Under the pieces are notes generated by a model. The model searched no databases. It had not been told where the DNA came from and saw nothing but the letters and a program-made list of their open reading frames with translations. Shown one piece after another: positions 24,830 through 34,333 of a stretch of 36,394 bases of DNA (position 1 is its first letter; every line of letters starts with the position of its first letter). Source of the DNA: a virus; the IMG/VR virus record IMGVR_UViG_3300047335_000135, positions 1-36,394 of that record; one strand, given 5' to 3'. The translations under genes were made by a program, and so were the position numbers.

Positions 24830-25082
24830 GTACCCAAGCTTTTTTGGTTGCATACTGCCATGAATCCCGGAAAACGATACGGACTGAAGATGTGACAAAG
24901 CGTCACGAACTGAGAGCGGTACCCAAGCTCAAACCAAAGCGGTACCCAAGCTCAAACCAAAGCGGTACCCAAGCTCAAACCAAAGCGGTACCCAAGCTTT
25001 TTTCCCTAGAATAAAGGCTTTTTTGGGTGCATAATGCCATGAATCCCGGAAAATTGTGTATGAGTGCGTGACAAAACGTCAC
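24830..25082. repeat. Two copies of a roughly 80-nt module flanking a tandem array
   Basis: Each module contains gtacccaagctttttt (24830; 24988), the exact 19-mer tgccatgaatcccggaaaa (24856-24874; 25035-25053), and a palindrome gtgacaaaRcgtcac (24892-24906; 25068-25082). Confidence 0.85.
24916..24999. repeat. Tandem repeat, 23-bp unit gcggtacccaagctcaaaccaaa x 3.6 (iteron-like)
   Basis: Three perfect units (24916-24938, 24939-24961, 24962-24984) plus a 14-15 nt partial fourth unit, read directly. Confidence 0.95.
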
Positions 25083-28180: not shown

Positions 28181-28645
28181 ATGATTCTGTTGGGCATAGA
28201 TCCAGGAACGCAGTACTTGGGCTTCTCTCTATTAACTGACCCAAAGAAGCCAAAACTATTACAGTATGGTTGCCTTAAGCTCAATCCCAAATCGAGTATC
28301 CCTGATCGCCTGGAAGAGATACATACGTTCTTTGCTGCTAAGATACTGAGCGATGAAGTAACGCATATGGCTATAGAGACACCATTTTTGGGTAAGAACA
28401 TACAATCATTTATGAAGCTATGCTATGTGCGTGGCATACTCTATCTCCTAGCAACACAAAACGATTTGGTGCTGTACGAATACTCACCGACAGAAGTAAA
28501 GAAGGCTATATGTACCTTTGGTGGTGCTCCTAAAGAACAAGTAGCACGCGTATTATGGCATATGTTTAAGGGGCTAGAGTCAGATCTTCGTGATGATATA
28601 ACGGATGCTATAGCAGTAGGGTTGTGCGGATTATGGAAGAAGTAG
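28181..28645 (+). CDS. ruvC: RuvC-type Holliday junction resolvase
   Basis: MILLGIDPGTQYLGF (Asp), MAIETPF (Glu), K..YVRG, P.EVKKA..G.G.A.KEQV and DDITDAIAVG (Asp/Asp) reproduce the bacterial RuvC catalytic tetrad and spacing. Confidence 0.85.
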   Translation: MILLGIDPGTQYLGFSLLTDPKKPKLLQYGCLKLNPKSSIPDRLEEIHTFFAAKILSDEVTHMAIETPFLGKNIQSFMKLCYVRGILYLLATQNDLVLYEYSPTEVKKAICTFGGAPKEQVARVLWHMFKGLESDLRDDITDAIAVGLCGLWKK

Positions 28646-29985
28646 GAAGACTAGAAGCGCGTATTAAGTTAGATAGGTTTAAGCCACGGGAGTTTCAAAT
28701 ACCTCTTATCAATGCATTAGAGAGAGATAAAAAGAAACGTTTGTTAGCAATATGGCCTCGTCGTGCCGGCAAGGATATATGCGCACTAAACATTATGCTT
28801 AGAGCAGCATTGCGTCAAGTGGGTAACTATTTCTATCTACTACCGACTGGTGTTCAAGCTCGGCGTACGGTGTTTGAAGGTATGACGATTGATGGTATGC
28901 AGTTCTTGGACTATATACCTGTAGAGCTTATAGAGAAAAAGAACATAGCTGAAATGAAACTTGTTCTCATTAACGGATCACAAATCCAGTTTGCTGGTAG
29001 CGATTCGTATGATAGGCTCATGGGTATCAGTGCCAATGGCATTATATTTAGTGAATATGCTTTGCAGGACCCTCGTGCCTATTCTTATTTGCGTCCAGCG
29101 CTCACAGCTGCTGATGCTTGGGCTCTGTTCATATCAACACCCCGCGGCCACAATCACCTTTATACTATGTATCAGGTAGCTAAAGAATCTCCAGACTGGT
29201 TCTGTTCGCATCTGACCGTGGAAGATACTAAGCACATATCTCTTTTCGATATACAAAAAGAAATATCTTTAGGAGAAATCTCCGAGGATCTGTCCAAGCA
29301 GGAATACTACACATCGTTTGACATGGGTATACAGGGCTCATATTACATGAAGTACATAGATAGACTGCGGTTAAATAATCAGATAACTGATGTGCCATGG
29401 GAGCCAAGTCATCCAGTGTATTCAAGTTGGGATATAGGTGTACGAGATAGTACCTCGATCATATTATTTCAGGTTATTGGTCAGACCGTAAGAATTTTAC
29501 AGGTATATGAAAAGAATAAAGAAGGACTTGAGCATTACATCAACTTTATAAAGTCACAGCCCTATACGTATGCTAAGCATTTTGCTCCTCACGATATGAA
29601 GCAAATGGAGTTTGGTTCAGGTATGACCCGTTGGGCCAAGGCTTATGATCTTGGGGTTAACTTCACTGTTGTAGATAACATTCCCATTGTTGATGGTATT
29701 GAGGTAGTGCGCAGTGTATTACCACGTTGCTGGTTTAATGAAGCTACAACAAGGCCGCTTATTAGGGCTTTAGAGAACTATCGACAAGAGTTTGATACCA
29801 AACACAATGTGTATAAAGGATCACCAGTGCATGACCAATACAGCCACTTTGCAGATAGTTTTAGGTATCTAGCAGTTGGATTGCGCCATGCACAAAAAAG
29901 CACATCGCCTGAAGAACTAGAGCGTAGATATCATGAAGCAACTTATGGCGATCAGCAGTTTACTGGATTTTTTAGGCAACAATAA
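28624..29985 (+). CDS. terL: Terminase large subunit
   Basis: Walker A-like WPRRAGKD, then ...LINGSQIQFAGSD (ATPase coupling region), and a C-terminal RNase H-like nuclease segment (SWDIGVRDSTSIILFQV...HDM...D.F). The start is GTG 28624 or ATG 28633 and overlaps the ruvC end. Confidence 0.8.
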   Translation: MRIMEEVGRLEARIKLDRFKPREFQIPLINALERDKKKRLLAIWPRRAGKDICALNIMLRAALRQVGNYFYLLPTGVQARRTVFEGMTIDGMQFLDYIPVELIEKKNIAEMKLVLINGSQIQFAGSDSYDRLMGISANGIIFSEYALQDPRAYSYLRPALTAADAWALFISTPRGHNHLYTMYQVAKESPDWFCSHLTVEDTKHISLFDIQKEISLGEISEDLSKQEYYTSFDMGIQGSYYMKYIDRLRLNNQITDVPWEPSHPVYSSWDIGVRDSTSIILFQVIGQTVRILQVYEKNKEGLEHYINFIKSQPYTYAKHFAPHDMKQMEFGSGMTRWAKAYDLGVNFTVVDNIPIVDGIEVVRSVLPRCWFNEATTRPLIRALENYRQEFDTKHNVYKGSPVHDQYSHFADSFRYLAVGLRHAQKSTSPEELERRYHEATYGDQQFTGFFRQQ

Positions 29986-30013
29986 TTGACATGCCAATAT
30001 GCCGTGATATATT
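29986..30013 (+). promoter_or_regulatory. Sigma70-like promoter candidate directly after the terL stop
   Basis: TTGACA (29986-29991), a 16-nt spacer, then TATATT (30008-30013). Confidence 0.5.
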
Positions 30014-30025
30014 TATGCCAACATT

Positions 30026-30255
30026 GCTCATGTATCTACCTTAGATATATATAATAGCTCACTGAGAGTGAAAGGCTCATAATATTTATAAATAGATGGT
30101 CATGAATTTTTATTAATGCTTAATTAAGCGCTCAACAGCAACCCATGAAATGCTCACGTGGTTTAAAGAATTAGCGCAATGTTGAATGCTCATATCATAG
30201 AATTGCAATAAAGGCTCAAGTTTTATAATCATTATAAATACTCACAGAAGGCTCA
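30026..30255 (+). repeat. Strand-asymmetric cluster of the GCTCA motif (8 exact copies plus 1 ACTCA) in the leader of the TnpB-like gene
   Basis: GCTCA starts at 30026, 30057, 30075, 30130, 30152, 30188, 30214 and 30251, with ACTCA at 30240. The contexts are WRGCTCAYR, three of them as aaggctca. I saw no TGAGC in this interval. Confidence 0.85.
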
Positions 30256-30265
30256 CGTTAACTAA

Positions 30266-31375
30266 ATGATACAAGTACAACTGAAACTTAAACTTACACG
30301 CAAACAAGAAACTATGATCCAAGAATGGTTTCCTATTCTAACGTCCATATGGAACTGGGCGATAAAGAAGATAGAATGGGATGCTGCTGATCATATCTAT
30401 TACAATAAGTTTGAGTTTGTTAATATGTTGGCTGGTCATAATAAGCGCTTGGGTATACCATCACATACTATTCAGGCAATGCTCAAAGATGCACATACCA
30501 CATGGCAGCGTTGTTTTAAGAAACTAGCAAGAGCACCACGACTTAAGGGGCAAAGAAATAGGCTCACATCCGTATCTTTTCCTGATCCTATAAAAAAAGC
30601 TCATGTTAATAGTACATCAATTGAATTGCCTTATTTGGGCAAACTTAAGTTTCATAAACAAATAATACCTTCGGGCAATATTAAATGTGCCCGTATAGTA
30701 AAGCGTGCTTCGGGTTTTTATCTTTGTTTGTTTATAGATGCTCAATCAAACAGAATTGCTCATAAGGGCTGTGAAGCGATAGGCATACAGCTCAGCGTTG
30801 ATGGTCGTATGGCATTATCTAATGGTGATATTATTCAACGCGAAGCACAGTTGCAAAAACATCTCAATAGATTGGCTCAAGCACAGCGCGGTGGTAATAA
30901 AAAGCTAGTAGCTCGATTGCATGAACGCATAGCCAATTGCCGTAAAGACGCCAATCATAAACTGTCTCGCAAGATGGTAGAGCAGTATGATACGATAGTG
31001 GTTAATAAAGATGACCTCAAGCAAAGAGCTCGTAATCTAGGCCTTTTGGTTGCTGATTCTGCCAATTACCAGCTACGTTTGATGATGTGTTATAAGAGTG
31101 AGAATAATGATAGAAAATATATAGAAGTTGCATCCAACACTAGTACTGCTGGTGCTACAATTTCCACCGTGACATGTTCAGTATGTAGATCACCTTCGGG
31201 TCCTGCATCATTGACATGTCTGAAGGTAAGGGAATGGGTTTGTGTGAGCTGTGGAACTCTTCATGATCGCGATGTAAATACCGCGAAAAACACACTTATT
31301 TCCGGGCTTGGAGCGAGCCACGAGAGCGATGCGAGTCGCGTCCGAAATTTATTGACTAATCGTTATGAGCTATAA
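30266..31375 (+). CDS. tnpB: TnpB-like (IS200/IS605 OrfB family) protein with the RuvC-I Asp replaced by Gln; predicted nuclease-inactive
   Basis: TnpB landmarks are present: VQLKLKLTRKQETMIQEWF..IWNWAI, AIGIQLSVDGRMALSNGD (RuvC-I position is Q), HERIANCRKDANHKLSRKMVEQYDTIVVNKDDLK (RuvC-II region), a CSVC...CVSC zinc ribbon, and HDRDVNTAKN (RuvC-III). Confidence 0.8.
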   Translation: MIQVQLKLKLTRKQETMIQEWFPILTSIWNWAIKKIEWDAADHIYYNKFEFVNMLAGHNKRLGIPSHTIQAMLKDAHTTWQRCFKKLARAPRLKGQRNRLTSVSFPDPIKKAHVNSTSIELPYLGKLKFHKQIIPSGNIKCARIVKRASGFYLCLFIDAQSNRIAHKGCEAIGIQLSVDGRMALSNGDIIQREAQLQKHLNRLAQAQRGGNKKLVARLHERIANCRKDANHKLSRKMVEQYDTIVVNKDDLKQRARNLGLLVADSANYQLRLMMCYKSENNDRKYIEVASNTSTAGATISTVTCSVCRSPSGPASLTCLKVREWVCVSCGTLHDRDVNTAKNTLISGLGASHESDASRVRNLLTNRYEL

Positions 31376-31641
31376 GCATGAGTTCAACCTTAATAGTTTC
31401 TATACCATGAGTTCGTCTTTGTAGTTAGTGATCATGGGCTCGTGCTTGAAGAAAAATAGCGGGGCTGGCAAAACAGTTCATATGGATGGCATAATCTCAT
31501 AAAATATGTCTAAATAGCTCACTCACGATCATTGAATTCAGTTAAACTCATAGATAGAAATAGGCTCATATAACCTATCCGCTCATTCAAGACATTTGTC
31601 ATATTAAGATCGCAGATCGGGTTTGTAGAAATAGGAAATAA
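31376..31641 (+). other. 266-nt non-coding tail of the TnpB-like gene; candidate omega/guide RNA region
   Basis: No ORF is present. It holds three CATGRGYTCR repeats (31377, 31406, 31433) and further GCTCA copies (31517, 31564, 31581). In canonical TnpB loci the omega RNA overlaps the 3' end of the gene and extends downstream. Confidence 0.35.
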
Positions 31642-31779
31642 ATGGATGAAATTAGAATTAGTGTTTTTTTACCTCAAGAACTCTACGAAATATTGAGAAG
31701 AATGGCGTTTGAACAAAGGATAACGCAAAAAGAAATAATCGTAGCGGCTTTAACAGAGTACATCAACAACGGCAATTAG
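31642..31779 (+). CDS. Ribbon-helix-helix (CopG/Arc-like) protein, 45 aa
   Basis: My translation is MDEIRISVFLPQELYEILRRMAFEQRITQKEIIVAALTEYINNGN, a textbook strand-helix-helix. The RBS aggaaataa lies upstream. Below the track cutoff. Confidence 0.6.
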   Translation: MDEIRISVFLPQELYEILRRMAFEQRITQKEIIVAALTEYINNGN

Positions 31780-31794
31780 ATTTCCTTATAGTTG

Positions 31795-31830
31795 AGGTCC
31801 AGTCAGTAGCGTATGCTGCTGGGCCTTTTT
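31795..31830 (+). terminator. Rho-independent terminator candidate
   Basis: Long imperfect stem aggtccag(t)cag...ctgctgggcct followed by ttttt. Confidence 0.6.
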
Positions 31831-31896
31831 CACCTCTTGCATTATTCCCCTTATATTTAGTAAGATGCTCTATGCAAATGGTATAGACAGAAAAAA

Positions 31897-31994
31897 TACC
31901 CGGTAGCTCAGCGGTAGAGTGATTGCCAGTAAAACGAGATTATTAGTTGTAATTTTGGGCAATTGGGACGTTGGTTCGAATCCAACTCGGGTTT
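31897..31994 (+). tRNA. tRNA-like gene with about 25 extra nt in the anticodon arm; identity undetermined
   Basis: The acceptor tacccgg / tcgggtt has a 1:72 mismatch. The D arm is gctc-agcggta-gagt and the T arm is gttgg-ttcgaat-ccaac. The anticodon stem halves attgc (31922-31926) and gcaat (31959-31963) are separated by 32 nt instead of 7. Confidence 0.55.
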
Positions 31995-32034
31995 TTTGAC
32001 TGATGGCGTGCACGCTACATTACGACATACTCTT

Positions 32035-32074
32035 GGTCCGGGTTTTTATATTTTTGTTCCCGGGCCTTCTTTTC
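32035..32074 (+). terminator. Hairpin plus T-tract between the two tRNA genes
   Basis: ggtccggg (32035-32042) pairs with cccgggcc (32059-32066) around a T-rich loop, followed by ttcttttc. Confidence 0.35.
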
Positions 32075-32079
32075 AAGTT

Positions 32080-32153
32080 GACCTGTTAGTTTATTGGTAG
32101 AACCCTGGGTTTTCAGCCCAGAGGAAAAGGTTCGATTCCTTTACAGGTTGCCA
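32080..32153 (+). tRNA. tRNA-Glu (anticodon UUC) with encoded CCA
   Basis: Folded manually. Acceptor gacctgt / acaggtt, D arm gttt-attggta-gaac, anticodon arm ctggg-ttTTCag-cccag, variable agga, T arm aaagg-ttcgatt-ccttt, discriminator g, then cca. Confidence 0.75.
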
Positions 32154-32203
32154 AAATAGTTACCCACCACTTCTTGTATTCTTATTATTTTTAGTTCTAT
32201 GTT

Positions 32204-32240
32204 TTCCTATGGAGCTCCATCCCTCTATATTCCATAGGAA
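32204..32240 (+). promoter_or_regulatory. Perfect 10-bp inverted repeat overlapping the portal RBS
   Basis: ttcctatgga (32204-32213) and tccataggaa (32231-32240). The 3' arm contains aggaa, 9 nt before ATG 32249. Confidence 0.4.
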
Positions 32241-32248
32241 GTAGCAAT

Positions 32249-34333
32249 ATGATATTTCCCCAACTCATGCCCGAATACGCGGATGAGAAAGATCGTCCAC
32301 TCTTATACCGAATGACAGACTTCTACTCTGAAAGCATTACGCTTAACCAGTCCTTTTGGGCTGAAGCAGACATAGATAATAGATTTATCTCAGGTGAAGT
32401 TAATCTCTGGTCGGAACTCTACCCAAATGTTCCTGCCAATCGTCGCAGGTTATTCAATTTTAATCGCATACGACGCGTTATTAACATGATCTCTGGCCAT
32501 CAGCGGCGTACGCGCAAGTCTATGATTGCTGTTCCCATAGAAAATGCTGATGATGCTACTGCAGATCAATTCACAAAAGTACTGATGCATGTAGCCCATC
32601 AAGATGGCATTCTTGAGACCATATCTGATGCCTTTTATGGGTCTCTTACAACAGGTATGACATTGCTTGAAGTATGGAACGATTTCCGTAAAGATCCCGT
32701 ATCAGGAACCCTACGAGTCAATAAATGTGAATATAATGAGTTTCTTATAGATCCCTATTTCCGCAAGCCAGATCTATCTGATTGCCGTGGTATATGGAAA
32801 CGCTCCTATATGACCAAGCGTGAGATCATTTCACTCATGCCTGACAAAGAGGATGAGATCATGTCCATTATGGTCAATGCTGCAGCTCCATCCAAGGATG
32901 CCAAGTTCCAATACATGCCAGAAAACTATGGTTGGTCATATAAAAATCTCATGGCCTATGACGAGTTCCATTACCAAGACTTTAGGCAACAAAAACTACT
33001 GGTAGATTCGCAAACAGGTGAAACAACTGAATGGCGCTCACAAGATGAAGATCGTTTGAAGGAGTTTCTACGCACATACCCACAAGTAACTGTTATAGAA
33101 ACAACGATTCCTACCGTCAAAGTAGGCATAGTTGTACAAGGCAAGGTGCTCTACGACGGCCCCAATACGCTTGGCATAGATCGTTATCCATTTGTTCCAG
33201 TACTGACCTACTATAATCCACAGTCACCTTATTATTATTTGCGCATACAAGGCGTGGTACGAGGACTCCGTGATGCTCAGTATCTTTATAGCAGACGTAA
33301 GGTTATAGAACTTGATATACTCGAGTCACAAATAAACTCAGGTTGGATCTACAAAGAGAACGCGCTTGTTAACCCTAAAGATGTTTTCCTGTCTAATCAG
33401 GGTCGTGGATTGGCGCTGAAGGACTCAGCTTTGATGACTGATGTGATGCAGATCCCAGCACCACAGATTCCTCCTTCTATGTTCCAATTATCTGAAGGCC
33501 TAGCTAACGAAATTAATCAGATCTCGGGCGTGAACGAAGAACTTTTGGGCAGCGCGATGGACGACAAAGCAGGCGTATTATCTATGCTCCGACAAGGTGC
33601 AGGACTTACAACATTACAACCTTTATTTGATCAATTAGACCAGTCTCAGAAGTTATTGGGCCGCATTCTTATTGAAGCAGTTCAATCTAATTACACTCCC
33701 GGCAAGATACAAAAGATCCTTAAGGAACAACCCTCTGATCAATTCTACAACAAGGCTTTTGGTATCTATGACTGTGTGGTTGAAGATGGCCTTAACACTG
33801 CCACCCAAAAACAGATGGAATTTGCACAACTCTTACAGCTACGTGAACTGGGTGTGCCTATACCGGACGAGTCGCTTGTTGAATCGGCTACTCTACAAAA
33901 TAAGAAAAAACTCATTGAAATCATGCAGAAGAATCAACAGCAGCAGCAACAGATGCAGCAGATGCAGATGCAGGCCGCTATCCAAGAACAACAGGCCCGT
34001 ACTGAACTTGCGCAAGCACGAACAGTTGCCGATCAGGGGCTTGGCGTAGAGCGTATGAGCAGAGTACAAGAGAACCAAGCATTGGCTACTGAGCGTAAGG
34101 CACAAGCAGAGCGTGATCACTATGCATCGCTATTAGACTTCGTTAAAGCACTTAAAGAACTAGAAGGCATTGATATTGCCAACTTAGGAAATTTGATCTC
34201 TCTTGCTAAAGGTTTGTCTATGGAAAGTGAACGCGGTGTACAGCATAATCCATCTCAGGCTGCTCCGAAGCGGGCACCTGCAAACAAACAAGAGAGATCG
34301 TTAGATGTATTGCAGGGATTAACTCCTGCGTAG
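32249..34333 (+). CDS. Portal protein (size and position-based)
   Basis: 694 aa and the first large head gene after terL. It has a Gln-rich coiled C-terminal barrel-like segment (QKNQQQQQQMQQMQMQAAIQEQQ). Confidence 0.6.
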   Translation: MIFPQLMPEYADEKDRPLLYRMTDFYSESITLNQSFWAEADIDNRFISGEVNLWSELYPNVPANRRRLFNFNRIRRVINMISGHQRRTRKSMIAVPIENADDATADQFTKVLMHVAHQDGILETISDAFYGSLTTGMTLLEVWNDFRKDPVSGTLRVNKCEYNEFLIDPYFRKPDLSDCRGIWKRSYMTKREIISLMPDKEDEIMSIMVNAAAPSKDAKFQYMPENYGWSYKNLMAYDEFHYQDFRQQKLLVDSQTGETTEWRSQDEDRLKEFLRTYPQVTVIETTIPTVKVGIVVQGKVLYDGPNTLGIDRYPFVPVLTYYNPQSPYYYLRIQGVVRGLRDAQYLYSRRKVIELDILESQINSGWIYKENALVNPKDVFLSNQGRGLALKDSALMTDVMQIPAPQIPPSMFQLSEGLANEINQISGVNEELLGSAMDDKAGVLSMLRQGAGLTTLQPLFDQLDQSQKLLGRILIEAVQSNYTPGKIQKILKEQPSDQFYNKAFGIYDCVVEDGLNTATQKQMEFAQLLQLRELGVPIPDESLVESATLQNKKKLIEIMQKNQQQQQQMQQMQMQAAIQEQQARTELAQARTVADQGLGVERMSRVQENQALATERKAQAERDHYASLLDFVKALKELEGIDIANLGNLISLAKGLSMESERGVQHNPSQAAPKRAPANKQERSLDVLQGLTPA

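What the first reader, a model, noticed from the sequence alone, without database searches (positions are those of the whole stretch)
31376..31641. 266-nt non-coding tail after the TnpB-like gene is a candidate omega/guide RNA locus, followed by an RHH gene
Canonical TnpB omega RNAs start inside the 3' end of tnpB and extend about 100-200 nt downstream, ending in the guide.

Here the gene is followed by 266 nt with no credible ORF. The tail contains three evenly spaced CATGRGYTCR elements (31377, 31406 and 31433; 27-29 nt apart) and then GCTCA copies. A 45-aa ribbon-helix-helix gene (31642..31779) and a strong terminator (31795..31830) come next, so TnpB-like gene, RNA and RHH gene look like one transcription unit.

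A guide at the 3' end of such an RNA, somewhere in roughly 31560-31640, would define the target. The pairing of a dead TnpB with an RHH repressor-like protein is not an arrangement I recognise.
Basis: inference. Interest (0 to 1): 0.65.

Follow-up and report, generated by a model that had tools for sequence, protein, structure and literature searches.

The report
Guide RNA of a phage dead-TnpB
A small uncultured phage carries a probably nuclease-dead TnpB that has kept its guide RNA under selection, but that RNA ends 12 bases after the gene, so most of the 266-base "tail" is something else: a fast-changing spacer with a promoter for the next gene.

Summary
Positions 31376-31641 are non-coding, the three CATGRGYTCR elements sit where stated, and an RHH gene and a terminator follow.

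An omega-RNA scaffold is present, but it lies mostly inside the gene.
- A covariance model built from 23 active relatives hits 31206-31387 (96 bits, E 2e-25). The hit ends exactly at GTTCAA, the right-end terminus at which multi-copy relatives diverge.
- The guide would therefore start at 31388 (CCTTAATAGTTTCTAT), not at 31560-31640.
- The first CATGAGTTCA is the scaffold's 3' end.

Selection on the RNA is shown two ways across four phage lineages. Synonymous change drops about 3-fold over the overlap, and hairpin 2 carries two compensatory pair changes.

The guides differ between lineages. No TGAAC-flanked target exists in the complete 36.4-kb phage genome, and the host is unknown.

In lineage L095 the RHH gene starts 27 nt after the scaffold, so the long tail is an expansion. 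It holds a conserved right-end duplicate, a conserved sigma-70-like promoter (31477-31505) and GCTCA motifs.

Best reading: an independent TldR-like domestication (dead TnpB, guide RNA, a private RHH gene) whose target is unknown. No RNA data could be obtained.

The parts
29986..30013 (+). Sigma-70-like promoter (TTGACA, 16 nt spacer, TG-TATATT) just after terL. It is the likely start of the TnpB-like/omega-RNA transcript.
   Evidence: 11 of 12 matches plus an extended TG. The sequence is conserved in L001, L057 and L068. Function is inferred.
30266..31375 (+). TnpB-like gene (369 aa). The RuvC-I Asp is replaced by Gln (GIQLSV versus GIDPGF in active relatives).
   Evidence: Pfam OrfB_IS605 and Cas12f1-like_TNB. 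Alignments to relatives and to ISDra2-type structures. dN/dS about 0.1.
31206..31387 (+). Omega-RNA scaffold, the retained transposon right end. The 5' limit is only the limit of the model.
   Evidence: Model R1 built from 23 active relatives: 96.3 bits, E 1.7e-25, full length. Reduced synonymous change over this stretch.
31302..31323 (+). Scaffold hairpin 1 (CCGGGCUUGGAGCGAGCC.CG).
   Evidence: 100% paired in four phage lineages. Ten GC<->CG swaps at one pair among active relatives.
31326..31339 (+). Scaffold hairpin 2 (GCGAU-GCGA-GUCGC).
   Evidence: Two compensatory double changes within the phage lineages: A-U to C-G in L057, and C-G to U-A in L095.
31382..31387 (+). GTTCAA, the right-end terminus and scaffold-guide junction. 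UUC (31383-31385) pairs with GAA (31344-31346).
   Evidence: Six Waddliaceae and four Acidoferrales copies diverge immediately after GGTTCAA. The pairs are invariant.
31388..31403 (+). Putative 16-nt guide, CCTTAATAGTTTCTAT. The length is assumed from TnpB/TldR precedent.
   Evidence: Position follows from the junction. The sequence is lineage-specific: L057 CCCTAATACCGTCTAT, L095 TACACTCATTGCTTAT. No target found.
31399..31415 (+). Island TCTATACCATGAGT, invariant in three lineages (31399-31412), extended here to the end of the second CATGAGTTCG (31406-31415), a duplicate of the right-end terminus.
   Evidence: Function unknown. The island is absent from L095.
31433..31442 (+). Third element, CATGGGCTCG. 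It is degenerate and not conserved in relatives.
31472..31512 (+). Conserved block holding a sigma-70-like promoter (TTCATA, 17 nt spacer, TAAAAT, at 31477-31505). It is a candidate promoter of the RHH gene.
   Evidence: 9 of 12 matches. Nearly invariant in window, L057 and L001 while the flanks are unalignable. Function is inferred.
31513..31641 (+). Fast-evolving, GCTCA-rich stretch: GCTCA at 31517, 31564 and 31581; CTCA at 31496 (just upstream of this stretch) and 31547. It would be the 5' UTR of the RHH gene.
   Evidence: Copy number and spacing differ in every lineage.
31642..31779 (+). RHH (CopG/Arc-like) gene, 45 aa.
   Evidence: The protein is unchanged apart from a GTG start in L001, while dS is 0.46. 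The only homologues among 5.8 billion proteins are in this phage group.
31803..31830 (+). Intrinsic-terminator-like hairpin plus T-run that closes the unit.

Best explanation
The phage carries a domesticated IS200/IS605 right half. It consists of a TnpB-like gene whose RuvC-I aspartate is glutamine, and that gene's own omega-RNA.

**Where the RNA is**
- The scaffold is encoded at about 31206-31387, mostly inside the 3' end of the gene.
- It ends at GTTCAA.
- The next 16 nt or so (31388-31403) are the guide.

**How it most likely works (inferred)**
- The RNA is made as the 3' part of the TnpB-like mRNA from the strong promoter at 29986-30013.
- The protein binds and protects it.
- The complex then binds, probably without cutting, DNA that carries the family's TAM 5'-TGAAC followed by a guide match. 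This would make it a TldR-like RNA-guided repressor.
- The target is outside the phage, presumably in the unknown host or a competitor.

**The rest of the tail (31404-31641)** is not omega RNA. It is a lineage-specific expansion between the guide and the co-inherited RHH gene. It holds a conserved duplicate of the right-end terminus, a conserved sigma-70-like promoter for RHH, and copies of the GCTCA motif that also fills the leader.

**Shown:** scaffold homology, the junction, the TAM of relatives, selection on protein and RNA, and the linkage to RHH.
**Inferred:** transcription, processing, loss of nuclease activity, DNA binding, repression and the target.
For: **Right end and TAM defined in active relatives**
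- Six 99%-identical Waddliaceae copies and four Acidoferrales copies end at ...GGAAT-hairpin-AGGTTCAA and diverge immediately afterwards.
- Their left ends abut TGAAC. So do 46%-identical copies carried by other phages.

**Scaffold structure and its match in the phage**
- The scaffold structure has 18 pairs with compensatory changes among 23 relatives.
- Model R1 hits only 31206-31387 in the window (96.3 bits, E 1.7e-25). It hits the equivalent place in L001, L057 and L095 (93-118 bits).

**Selection**
- dN/dS is about 0.1.
- Third-position differences fall from 28-31% to 11% over the RNA overlap (p = 0.0045 and 0.0011).
- Against L095, synonymous differences are 41/88 upstream and 5/36 in the overlap (p = 5e-4).
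- Hairpin 2 keeps pairing through A-U to C-G and C-G to U-A changes that alter the encoded amino acids. In L095 the ORF stops earlier, yet the scaffold continues to GTTCAA.

**Loss of nuclease and of transposon context**
- RuvC-I D to Q, aligned to ISDra2-type D191.
- No tnpA and no left-end remnant.

**The tail**
- It is 266, 317 and about 340 nt long in three lineages and 27 nt in L095.
- Only the islands at 31399-31412 and 31472-31512 are conserved.
- A promoter-like site lies at 31477-31505.
Against: - There are no RNA data.
- No TAM-flanked target was found in the complete phage genome. Hits in viral contigs are at chance level.
- The guide region changes at about the neutral rate or faster (4 of 16 between phages with dS 0.18). 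That also fits a guide that no longer matters.
- Only one canonical catalytic residue is lost. The family's RuvC-II site is non-canonical even in active copies, so 'dead' is likely but untested.
- The terminal hairpin is long and weak in the window lineage: 33 nt against 23, and the single-sequence fold z-score is about 0.
- Helices 1-3 of the model pair poorly in the phages, at 60-85%.
- These phages are mosaic, so part of the low divergence could come from recombination.
- The invariant island at 31399-31412 and the GCTCA arrays remain unexplained.
Confidence: 0.62

Rival explanations
1. Relic right end with a guide that no longer matters. The protein is kept for some role that still needs the scaffold RNA (folding, stability, or TAM-only binding). 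The 3' 'guide' is just drifting spacer in front of the RHH gene, and no specific target exists.
For: - The guide region differs in every lineage and evolves at least as fast as synonymous sites.
- No target was found.
- In L095 the would-be guide runs into the RHH ribosome-binding site.
Against: - The junction motif GTTCAA and the scaffold are strictly kept in four lineages.
- In active elements guides are by nature different at every insertion, so variability alone says little.
- The host genome could not be searched.
Confidence: 0.22
2. The whole 266-nt tail is one long omega/guide RNA with the guide near 31560-31640.
For: - No terminator lies between the gene and RHH.
- The tail is non-coding.
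Against: - The model hit ends at 31387.
- Relatives' right ends stop at GTTCAA.
- 31404-31641 is unalignable among close phages and missing from L095.
- Rfam finds nothing in the tail at E up to 10.
Confidence: 0.03
3. Mini guide array. The right-end terminus plus its flank was duplicated (units at 31377, 31406 and 31433, perhaps also the GCTCA-headed units), giving several alternative guides. This would be a proto-CRISPR-like arrangement.
For: - Units 1 and 2 share CATGAGTTC and about half of the following 20 nt.
- The unit-2 repeat is invariant in three lineages.
- An active relative (L012) has a tandem duplicate of its terminus, GGGGAGGCTCA.
- The motif RGCTCA resembles the terminus AGGYTCA.
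Against: - A guide must be contiguous with the scaffold. Only 3 bp tie the terminus to the rest of the scaffold, so a split RNA has no anchor.
- Unit 3 is not conserved.
- Spacing is irregular (17-55 nt).
- TRF finds no array.
- L095 has none of this between scaffold and RHH.
Confidence: 0.06
4. The tail is simply the promoter, operator and 5' UTR of the RHH gene. The GCTCA and CATGAG repeats are binding sites for the RHH repressor, unrelated to TnpB.
For: - A conserved promoter-like block lies at 31477-31505.
- RHH proteins typically bind short repeated sites (general knowledge of the Arc, CopG and Omega repressors).
- In L095 two TAAATGCTCA copies lie next to the RHH gene.
Against: - This does not account for 31376-31403, which is scaffold end plus guide.
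- The motifs also fill the leader and the 5' half of the TnpB-like gene, far from RHH.
- This reading is compatible with the best explanation for 31404-31641, so it is not a true alternative there.
Confidence: 0.3

Closest known systems
TldR, TnpB-like nuclease-dead repressors (Wiegand et al., PMC10705468; Xiao et al., bioRxiv 10.64898/2026.09.22.753285)
   Same: - TnpB homologue with a damaged RuvC site.
- No TnpA and no left end.
- A guide RNA encoded at or after the 3' end of the gene, found here by the same method those authors used: a covariance model from related active TnpBs, which fixes the scaffold-guide junction.
- A new conserved neighbour gene.
- Phage-borne, like the fliCP-associated clade.
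   Different: - An independent clade: nearest relatives are active IS elements at 45-57% identity with TAM TGAAC.
- Only one canonical catalytic residue is lost, and the zinc finger and RuvC-III are intact. The published screen required two or more mutations.
- The partner is a private 45-aa RHH protein, not fliC, oppF or csrA.
- Guides differ between close lineages and no target is known.
- The locus lies between terL and the portal gene of a 36-kb phage and is surrounded by GCTCA arrays.
Canonical IS200/IS605 TnpB omega RNA (e.g. ISDra2)
   Same: - The scaffold overlaps the 3' end of tnpB and spans the right end.
- The guide is the first ~16 nt beyond the right end.
- The TAM flanks the left end.
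   Different: - This copy is not mobile: no left end and no tnpA.
- RuvC-I is mutated.
- The ORF has read through into the scaffold, giving a 17-aa extension encoded by RNA-constrained sequence.
Type V CRISPR origins from TnpB by omega-RNA splitting (TranC; PDB 9jfo and 9jfq appear among the hits)
   Same: Repeats derived from the 3' end of the scaffold next to short unique segments resemble what units 1-3 look like superficially.
   Different: There is no anti-repeat, no regular array and no adaptation genes. The units look like a decayed tandem duplication.

Membership tests
TnpB omega RNA (IS200/IS605 right-end RNA) | Sequence-and-structure match to the omega RNAs of related active TnpBs, overlapping the 3' end of the gene | tested here: met
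   Model R1: 96.3 bits, E 1.7e-25, full length, at 31206-31387. It is the only hit in the genome.
TnpB omega RNA (IS200/IS605 right-end RNA) | Scaffold ends at the transposon right-end boundary, which is defined by divergence of multi-copy elements | tested here: met
   The boundary ...AGGTTCAA| holds in 10 copies of two species. The phage has GTTCAA at 31382-31387 at the model's last positions.
TnpB omega RNA (IS200/IS605 right-end RNA) | Base pairs maintained by selection | tested here: met
   - 18 pairs covary in the family.
- Two compensatory changes in hairpin 2 among four phage lineages; 87% of cells paired against 35-53% when the partners are slid.
- Synonymous-site suppression.
TnpB omega RNA (IS200/IS605 right-end RNA) | A stable RNA of that extent is made and bound by the protein | not testable with these tools
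This needs RNA-seq or RIP-seq.
TldR (nuclease-dead TnpB repressor) | RuvC DED triad inactivated (the published screen required at least two mutated residues) | tested here: inconclusive
   - RuvC-I D to Q.
- RuvC-III HDRD is intact.
- The RuvC-II position is Ser/Asn in the whole family, including transposing copies, so it cannot be counted.
TldR (nuclease-dead TnpB repressor) | Loss of transposon context (no TnpA, no left end) and a new conserved gene association | tested here: met
   - No tnpA.
- No left-end match at E up to 10.
- RHH follows in all four lineages and is found nowhere else.
TldR (nuclease-dead TnpB repressor) | Guide complementary to a TAM-flanked site in a promoter | tested here: inconclusive
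   None exists in the complete phage genome or in the fetched relatives. Viral-contig hits are at chance level, and the best one lies inside a coding gene. The host genome is unknown.
TldR (nuclease-dead TnpB repressor) | RNA-guided binding represses transcription without cleavage | not testable with these tools
   This needs plasmid-interference, ChIP-seq and reporter assays.
CRISPR-like or split-guide array | Regular repeats separated by unrelated spacers, with a complementary anti-repeat | tested here: not met
   - TRF finds no array.
- The 'spacers' of units 1 and 2 are about 50% alike.
- Unit 3 is not conserved.
- No anti-repeat: only 3 bp link the terminus to the scaffold.

The most novel reading that the evidence does not exclude
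A phage-private regulatory module. A dead TnpB with a fast-retargeting guide, an RHH repressor translated from the same transcript (27 nt after the guide in L095), and arrays of GCTCA would work together. GCTCA is the reverse complement of TGAGC, one base away from the family TAM TGAAC, and it also resembles the right-end terminus. One possibility is that the TAM-like arrays, or duplicated right-end units, recruit or titrate the RNA-protein complex at its own locus. That would be a form of TnpB-derived regulation not yet described.
Probability: 0.15. Interest if true: 0.8.

Novelty: new member of a known kind. Interest (0 to 1): 0.5.

Why it matters
TldRs show that transposon nucleases can become RNA-guided transcription factors, and one clade is used by temperate phages to rewire host flagella. 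This locus would be another, independent domestication:
- in a different TnpB clade;
- in a small phage between its terminase and portal genes;
- with the RNA demonstrably under selection;
- with a different partner, an RHH protein;
- with guides that change between close relatives.

If the targets can be found once the host is known, they would show what a phage gains by carrying a reprogrammable repressor. The case also shows how to place the guide correctly, by taking the right-end boundary from multi-copy active relatives.

Tried and rejected
- **Rfam:** an E-value scan of 29500-32600 found only the two tRNA-type hits.
- **Known phages:** blastn against GenBank phages found no match. tblastn gave only TnpBs at 31% identity or less.
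- **Self-targets:** I scanned for TGAAC plus guides g1-g3 and the guides of the other lineages, with 9-, 11-, 12- and 16-nt windows. Nothing was TAM-flanked. One 12/16 match for 'guide 3' after TTGAAC, inside the portal gene (33679, minus strand), was judged chance: low complexity and mismatches at positions 6, 9, 12 and 16.
- **Exact TAM+11 nt scans of IMG/VR:** 21 and 3 hits, by my own rough estimate about the number expected by chance. The best (L076/L088, TAM+15 nt) is antisense inside a structural gene of an unrelated phage.
- **Left-end remnant:** nhmmer found none.
- **Empty-site comparison:** the only TerL relative without the module (L069, 70% identity) has unrelated genes there, so no clean empty site exists.
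- **L068:** a 246-aa 'truncated' homologue that turned out to be a chimeric assembly.
- **Long hairpin 31373-31448:** formed by the CATG-containing units. Its z-score is -0.6 and it is not conserved, so I dropped it.
- **Internal promoter at 31079-31108:** not conserved in L001.

Full report
**Setting.** The window is a complete 36,394-bp viral genome with direct terminal repeats. The finding lies between the large terminase gene (28624-29985) and a P22-like portal gene (32249-34333). In between are a 280-nt leader, a 369-aa TnpB-like ORF (30266-31375; Pfam OrfB_IS605 and Cas12f1-like_TNB), the 266-nt tail, a 45-aa RHH ORF (31642-31779), a terminator, and two tRNA-type genes.

**Observation.**
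- No ORF longer than 27 aa lies in 31376-31641 on either strand.
- CATGRGYTCR occurs only at 31377, 31406 and 31433 in the whole genome.
- GCTCA occurs at 31517, 31564 and 31581.
- The RHH call passes Pfam's threshold.
- A terminator-like hairpin with a T-run follows at 31803-31830.

**Where the omega RNA of this family ends.**
- The protein has about 1,360 relatives. Nearly all of the best 120 are 50-56% identical and carry GIDPGF at RuvC-I.
- A scan of species genomes gave 51 loci. These include six 99%-identical copies in one Waddliaceae MAG and four in an Acidoferrales MAG.
- In both sets the copies are identical up to ...CCGGAAT-[hairpin]-AGGTTCAA and unrelated from the next base on. This is the right end, about 45 nt past the stop codon, so the guide starts right after GTTCAA.
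- On the left side every copy abuts TGAAC, mostly TTGAAC. The same ATGAAC flanks the left ends of 45-47%-identical copies carried by other phages.
- The family TAM is therefore 5'-TGAAC.

**The scaffold is conserved in the phage.**
- An alignment of 23 non-redundant right ends (110 nt of gene plus the right end) gives a consensus structure of 36 pairs. Eighteen of these show compensatory changes.
- The covariance model built from it, with no phage sequence included, has one hit in the genome: 31206-31387, 96.3 bits, E 1.7e-25, full length, ending on GUUCAA.
- Part of the score comes from shared coding sequence. But hairpin 2, GUCCGAAAU and GUUCAA lie beyond the region where the proteins are alignable.
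- The phage ORF simply reads on through them. One relative, P0006, gives a similar read-through peptide in the same frame.

**The RNA is under selection in the phage lineage.** Four lineages of the module exist: the window; L001/L058 (91% aa); L002/L057 (97-98%); and L095, a 1.7-kb contig found through its RHH homologue (76% aa over the C-terminal 159 residues).
- The gene has dN/dS of about 0.1 at dS 0.18-0.57.
- Third-codon-position differences drop from 28-31% to 11% over the scaffold overlap in the two deeper pairs (p = 0.0045 and 0.0011). These two pairs share a branch.
- Against L095, codons with identical amino acids differ synonymously in 41/88 cases upstream and in 5/36 over the overlap (p = 5e-4).
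- Hairpin 2 is GCGAU...GUCGC in the window, GCGCU...AGCGC in L057 and GUGAU...GUCAC in L095. These are two independent double changes that keep the pairs and that alter the encoded residues.
- In L095 a C-to-T change makes a stop codon inside GUCUGAAAU, yet the sequence still runs 33 nt further to GTTCAA. What is conserved there is the RNA (or DNA), not the protein.
- Weaker points:
  - Model helices 1-3 pair poorly in the phages, at 60-85%.
  - The terminal hairpin is 33 nt and AU-rich in the window lineage.
  - Single-sequence folding energies are no better than shuffles.

**The guide.**
- From the junction, the guide begins at 31388: CCTTAATAGTTTCTAT.
- The other lineages have CCCTAATACCGTCTAT (L057), TACACTCATTGCTTAT (L095) and an indel-shifted sequence (L001).
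- No TGAAC-flanked match to any of these exists in the phage genome or the fetched relatives.
- Exact scans of 2.9 million viral contigs return roughly chance numbers, by my own estimate of the collection's size. The longest match (TAM+15 nt) lies antisense inside a structural gene of an unrelated phage.
- The host is unknown and could not be searched. Whether the guide is functional is therefore open: its variability fits both retargeting and drift.

**The rest of the tail.**
- Between phages whose flanking genes are 91-97% identical, the tail is 266, 317 and about 340 nt long and largely unalignable.
- There are two conserved islands:
  - TCTATACCATGAGT (31399-31412), which includes the second element, a duplicate of the right-end terminus.
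  - 31472-31512, which contains TTCATA, a 17-nt spacer and TAAAAT.
- The third element is not conserved.
- In L095 the RHH start codon lies 27 nt after GTTCAA, with two TAAATGCTCA copies after the RHH gene instead.
- So 31404-31641 is an expansion that is dispensable for the module. Its best-supported role is promoter and 5' UTR of the RHH gene, plus carrier of GCTCA motifs.
- Those motifs are part of a strand-specific excess: 18 of 58 genomic copies lie within 1.55 kb. The excess also covers the leader and the 5' half of the gene, in two reading frames.
- Copy number and spacing differ in every lineage. Active relatives, including those carried by other phages, have no such arrays.
- GCTCA is the reverse complement of TGAGC, one transition from the TAM. 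It also resembles the right-end terminus AGGYTCA; relative L012 has GGGGAGGCTCA twice. I could not decide between these resemblances.

**Is the protein dead?**
- RuvC-I Asp is Gln in the three lineages where it can be read. It aligns with the Asp of GVDLGIK in a designed ISDra2-type nuclease (PDB 9yyg), which corresponds to D191 of ISDra2 TnpB.
- RuvC-III HDRD and the zinc-finger cysteines are intact.
- The canonical RuvC-II Glu is absent from the whole family, including copies that are evidently transposing. The family presumably uses a relocated Glu, and E220 is invariant.
- The TldR authors warn about exactly this flexibility (PMC10705468). Inactivation is therefore likely, on one residue, but untested.
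- The helix that aligns with ISDra2 K76/F77/Q80 reads PSHTxQ in both the family and the phage. By my recollection of the ISDra2 structures, that helix contacts the TAM. This is weak support for an unchanged TAM.

**Verdict.**
- What is there is best described as a new, independent TldR-like module: dead TnpB, conserved guide-RNA scaffold, lineage-specific guide and a private RHH gene.
- Its target is unknown, and its flanking motif arrays are unexplained.
- The procedure used here (right end from active relatives, covariance model, junction, guide) is the one published for TldRs (PMC10705468).

Noticed in passing
30026-31581 (leader, 5' half of the gene, tail); L095:697-725: There is a strand-specific GCTCA excess: 18 of the genome's 58 copies. 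Copy number and spacing differ in all four lineages. L068 has an extra duplicated unit in the leader, and L095 has two TAAATGCTCA copies after the RHH gene. Active relatives, including phage-borne ones, lack such arrays. The motif is one base from the reverse complement of the family TAM (TGAAC), and it resembles the right-end terminus AGGYTCA.
   Followed up: partly
31897-31994: A tRNA-like gene scores 41 bits against Rfam tRNA, with about 31 nt in place of the anticodon loop. ARAGORN does not call it. It is conserved in L001 and L057 and absent from L095.
   Followed up: no
24900-25000: A perfect 23-nt tandem repeat (GCGGTACCCAAGCTCAAACCAAA, about 3.6 copies) sits in a gene-free stretch, flanked by duplicated ~80-nt modules. 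It looks like an iteron or origin.
   Followed up: no
L005, L006, L009, L015, L036, L038 (Waddliaceae MAG); L010, L027, L030, L035, L043, L044, L050 (other Chlamydiae): The active IS200/IS605 relatives (tnpA + tnpB, TAM TGAAC) are multi-copy and 99% identical within one Waddliaceae genome. They are widespread in environmental Chlamydiae MAGs, which suggests recent transposition there.
   Followed up: partly
L068:1150-4325: This ENA contig joins the phage TnpB-like gene, in mid-codon, to high-GC bacterial sequence. It is most likely an assembly chimera, so its 246-aa 'truncated homologue' (P0002) is not real.
   Followed up: partly
window vs L057: 30266-31779: The phages are mosaic. The TnpB-like gene has dS 0.18 between window and L057, but the adjacent RHH gene has dS 0.46 and the tail between them is unalignable. 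A recombination breakpoint therefore lies in the tail.
   Followed up: partly
L012:2580-2612: An active relative carries a tandem duplication of its right-end terminus (GGGGAGGCTCA GGGGAGGCTCAA). Terminus duplications like units 1 and 2 of the phage tail therefore also arise in mobile copies.
   Followed up: no
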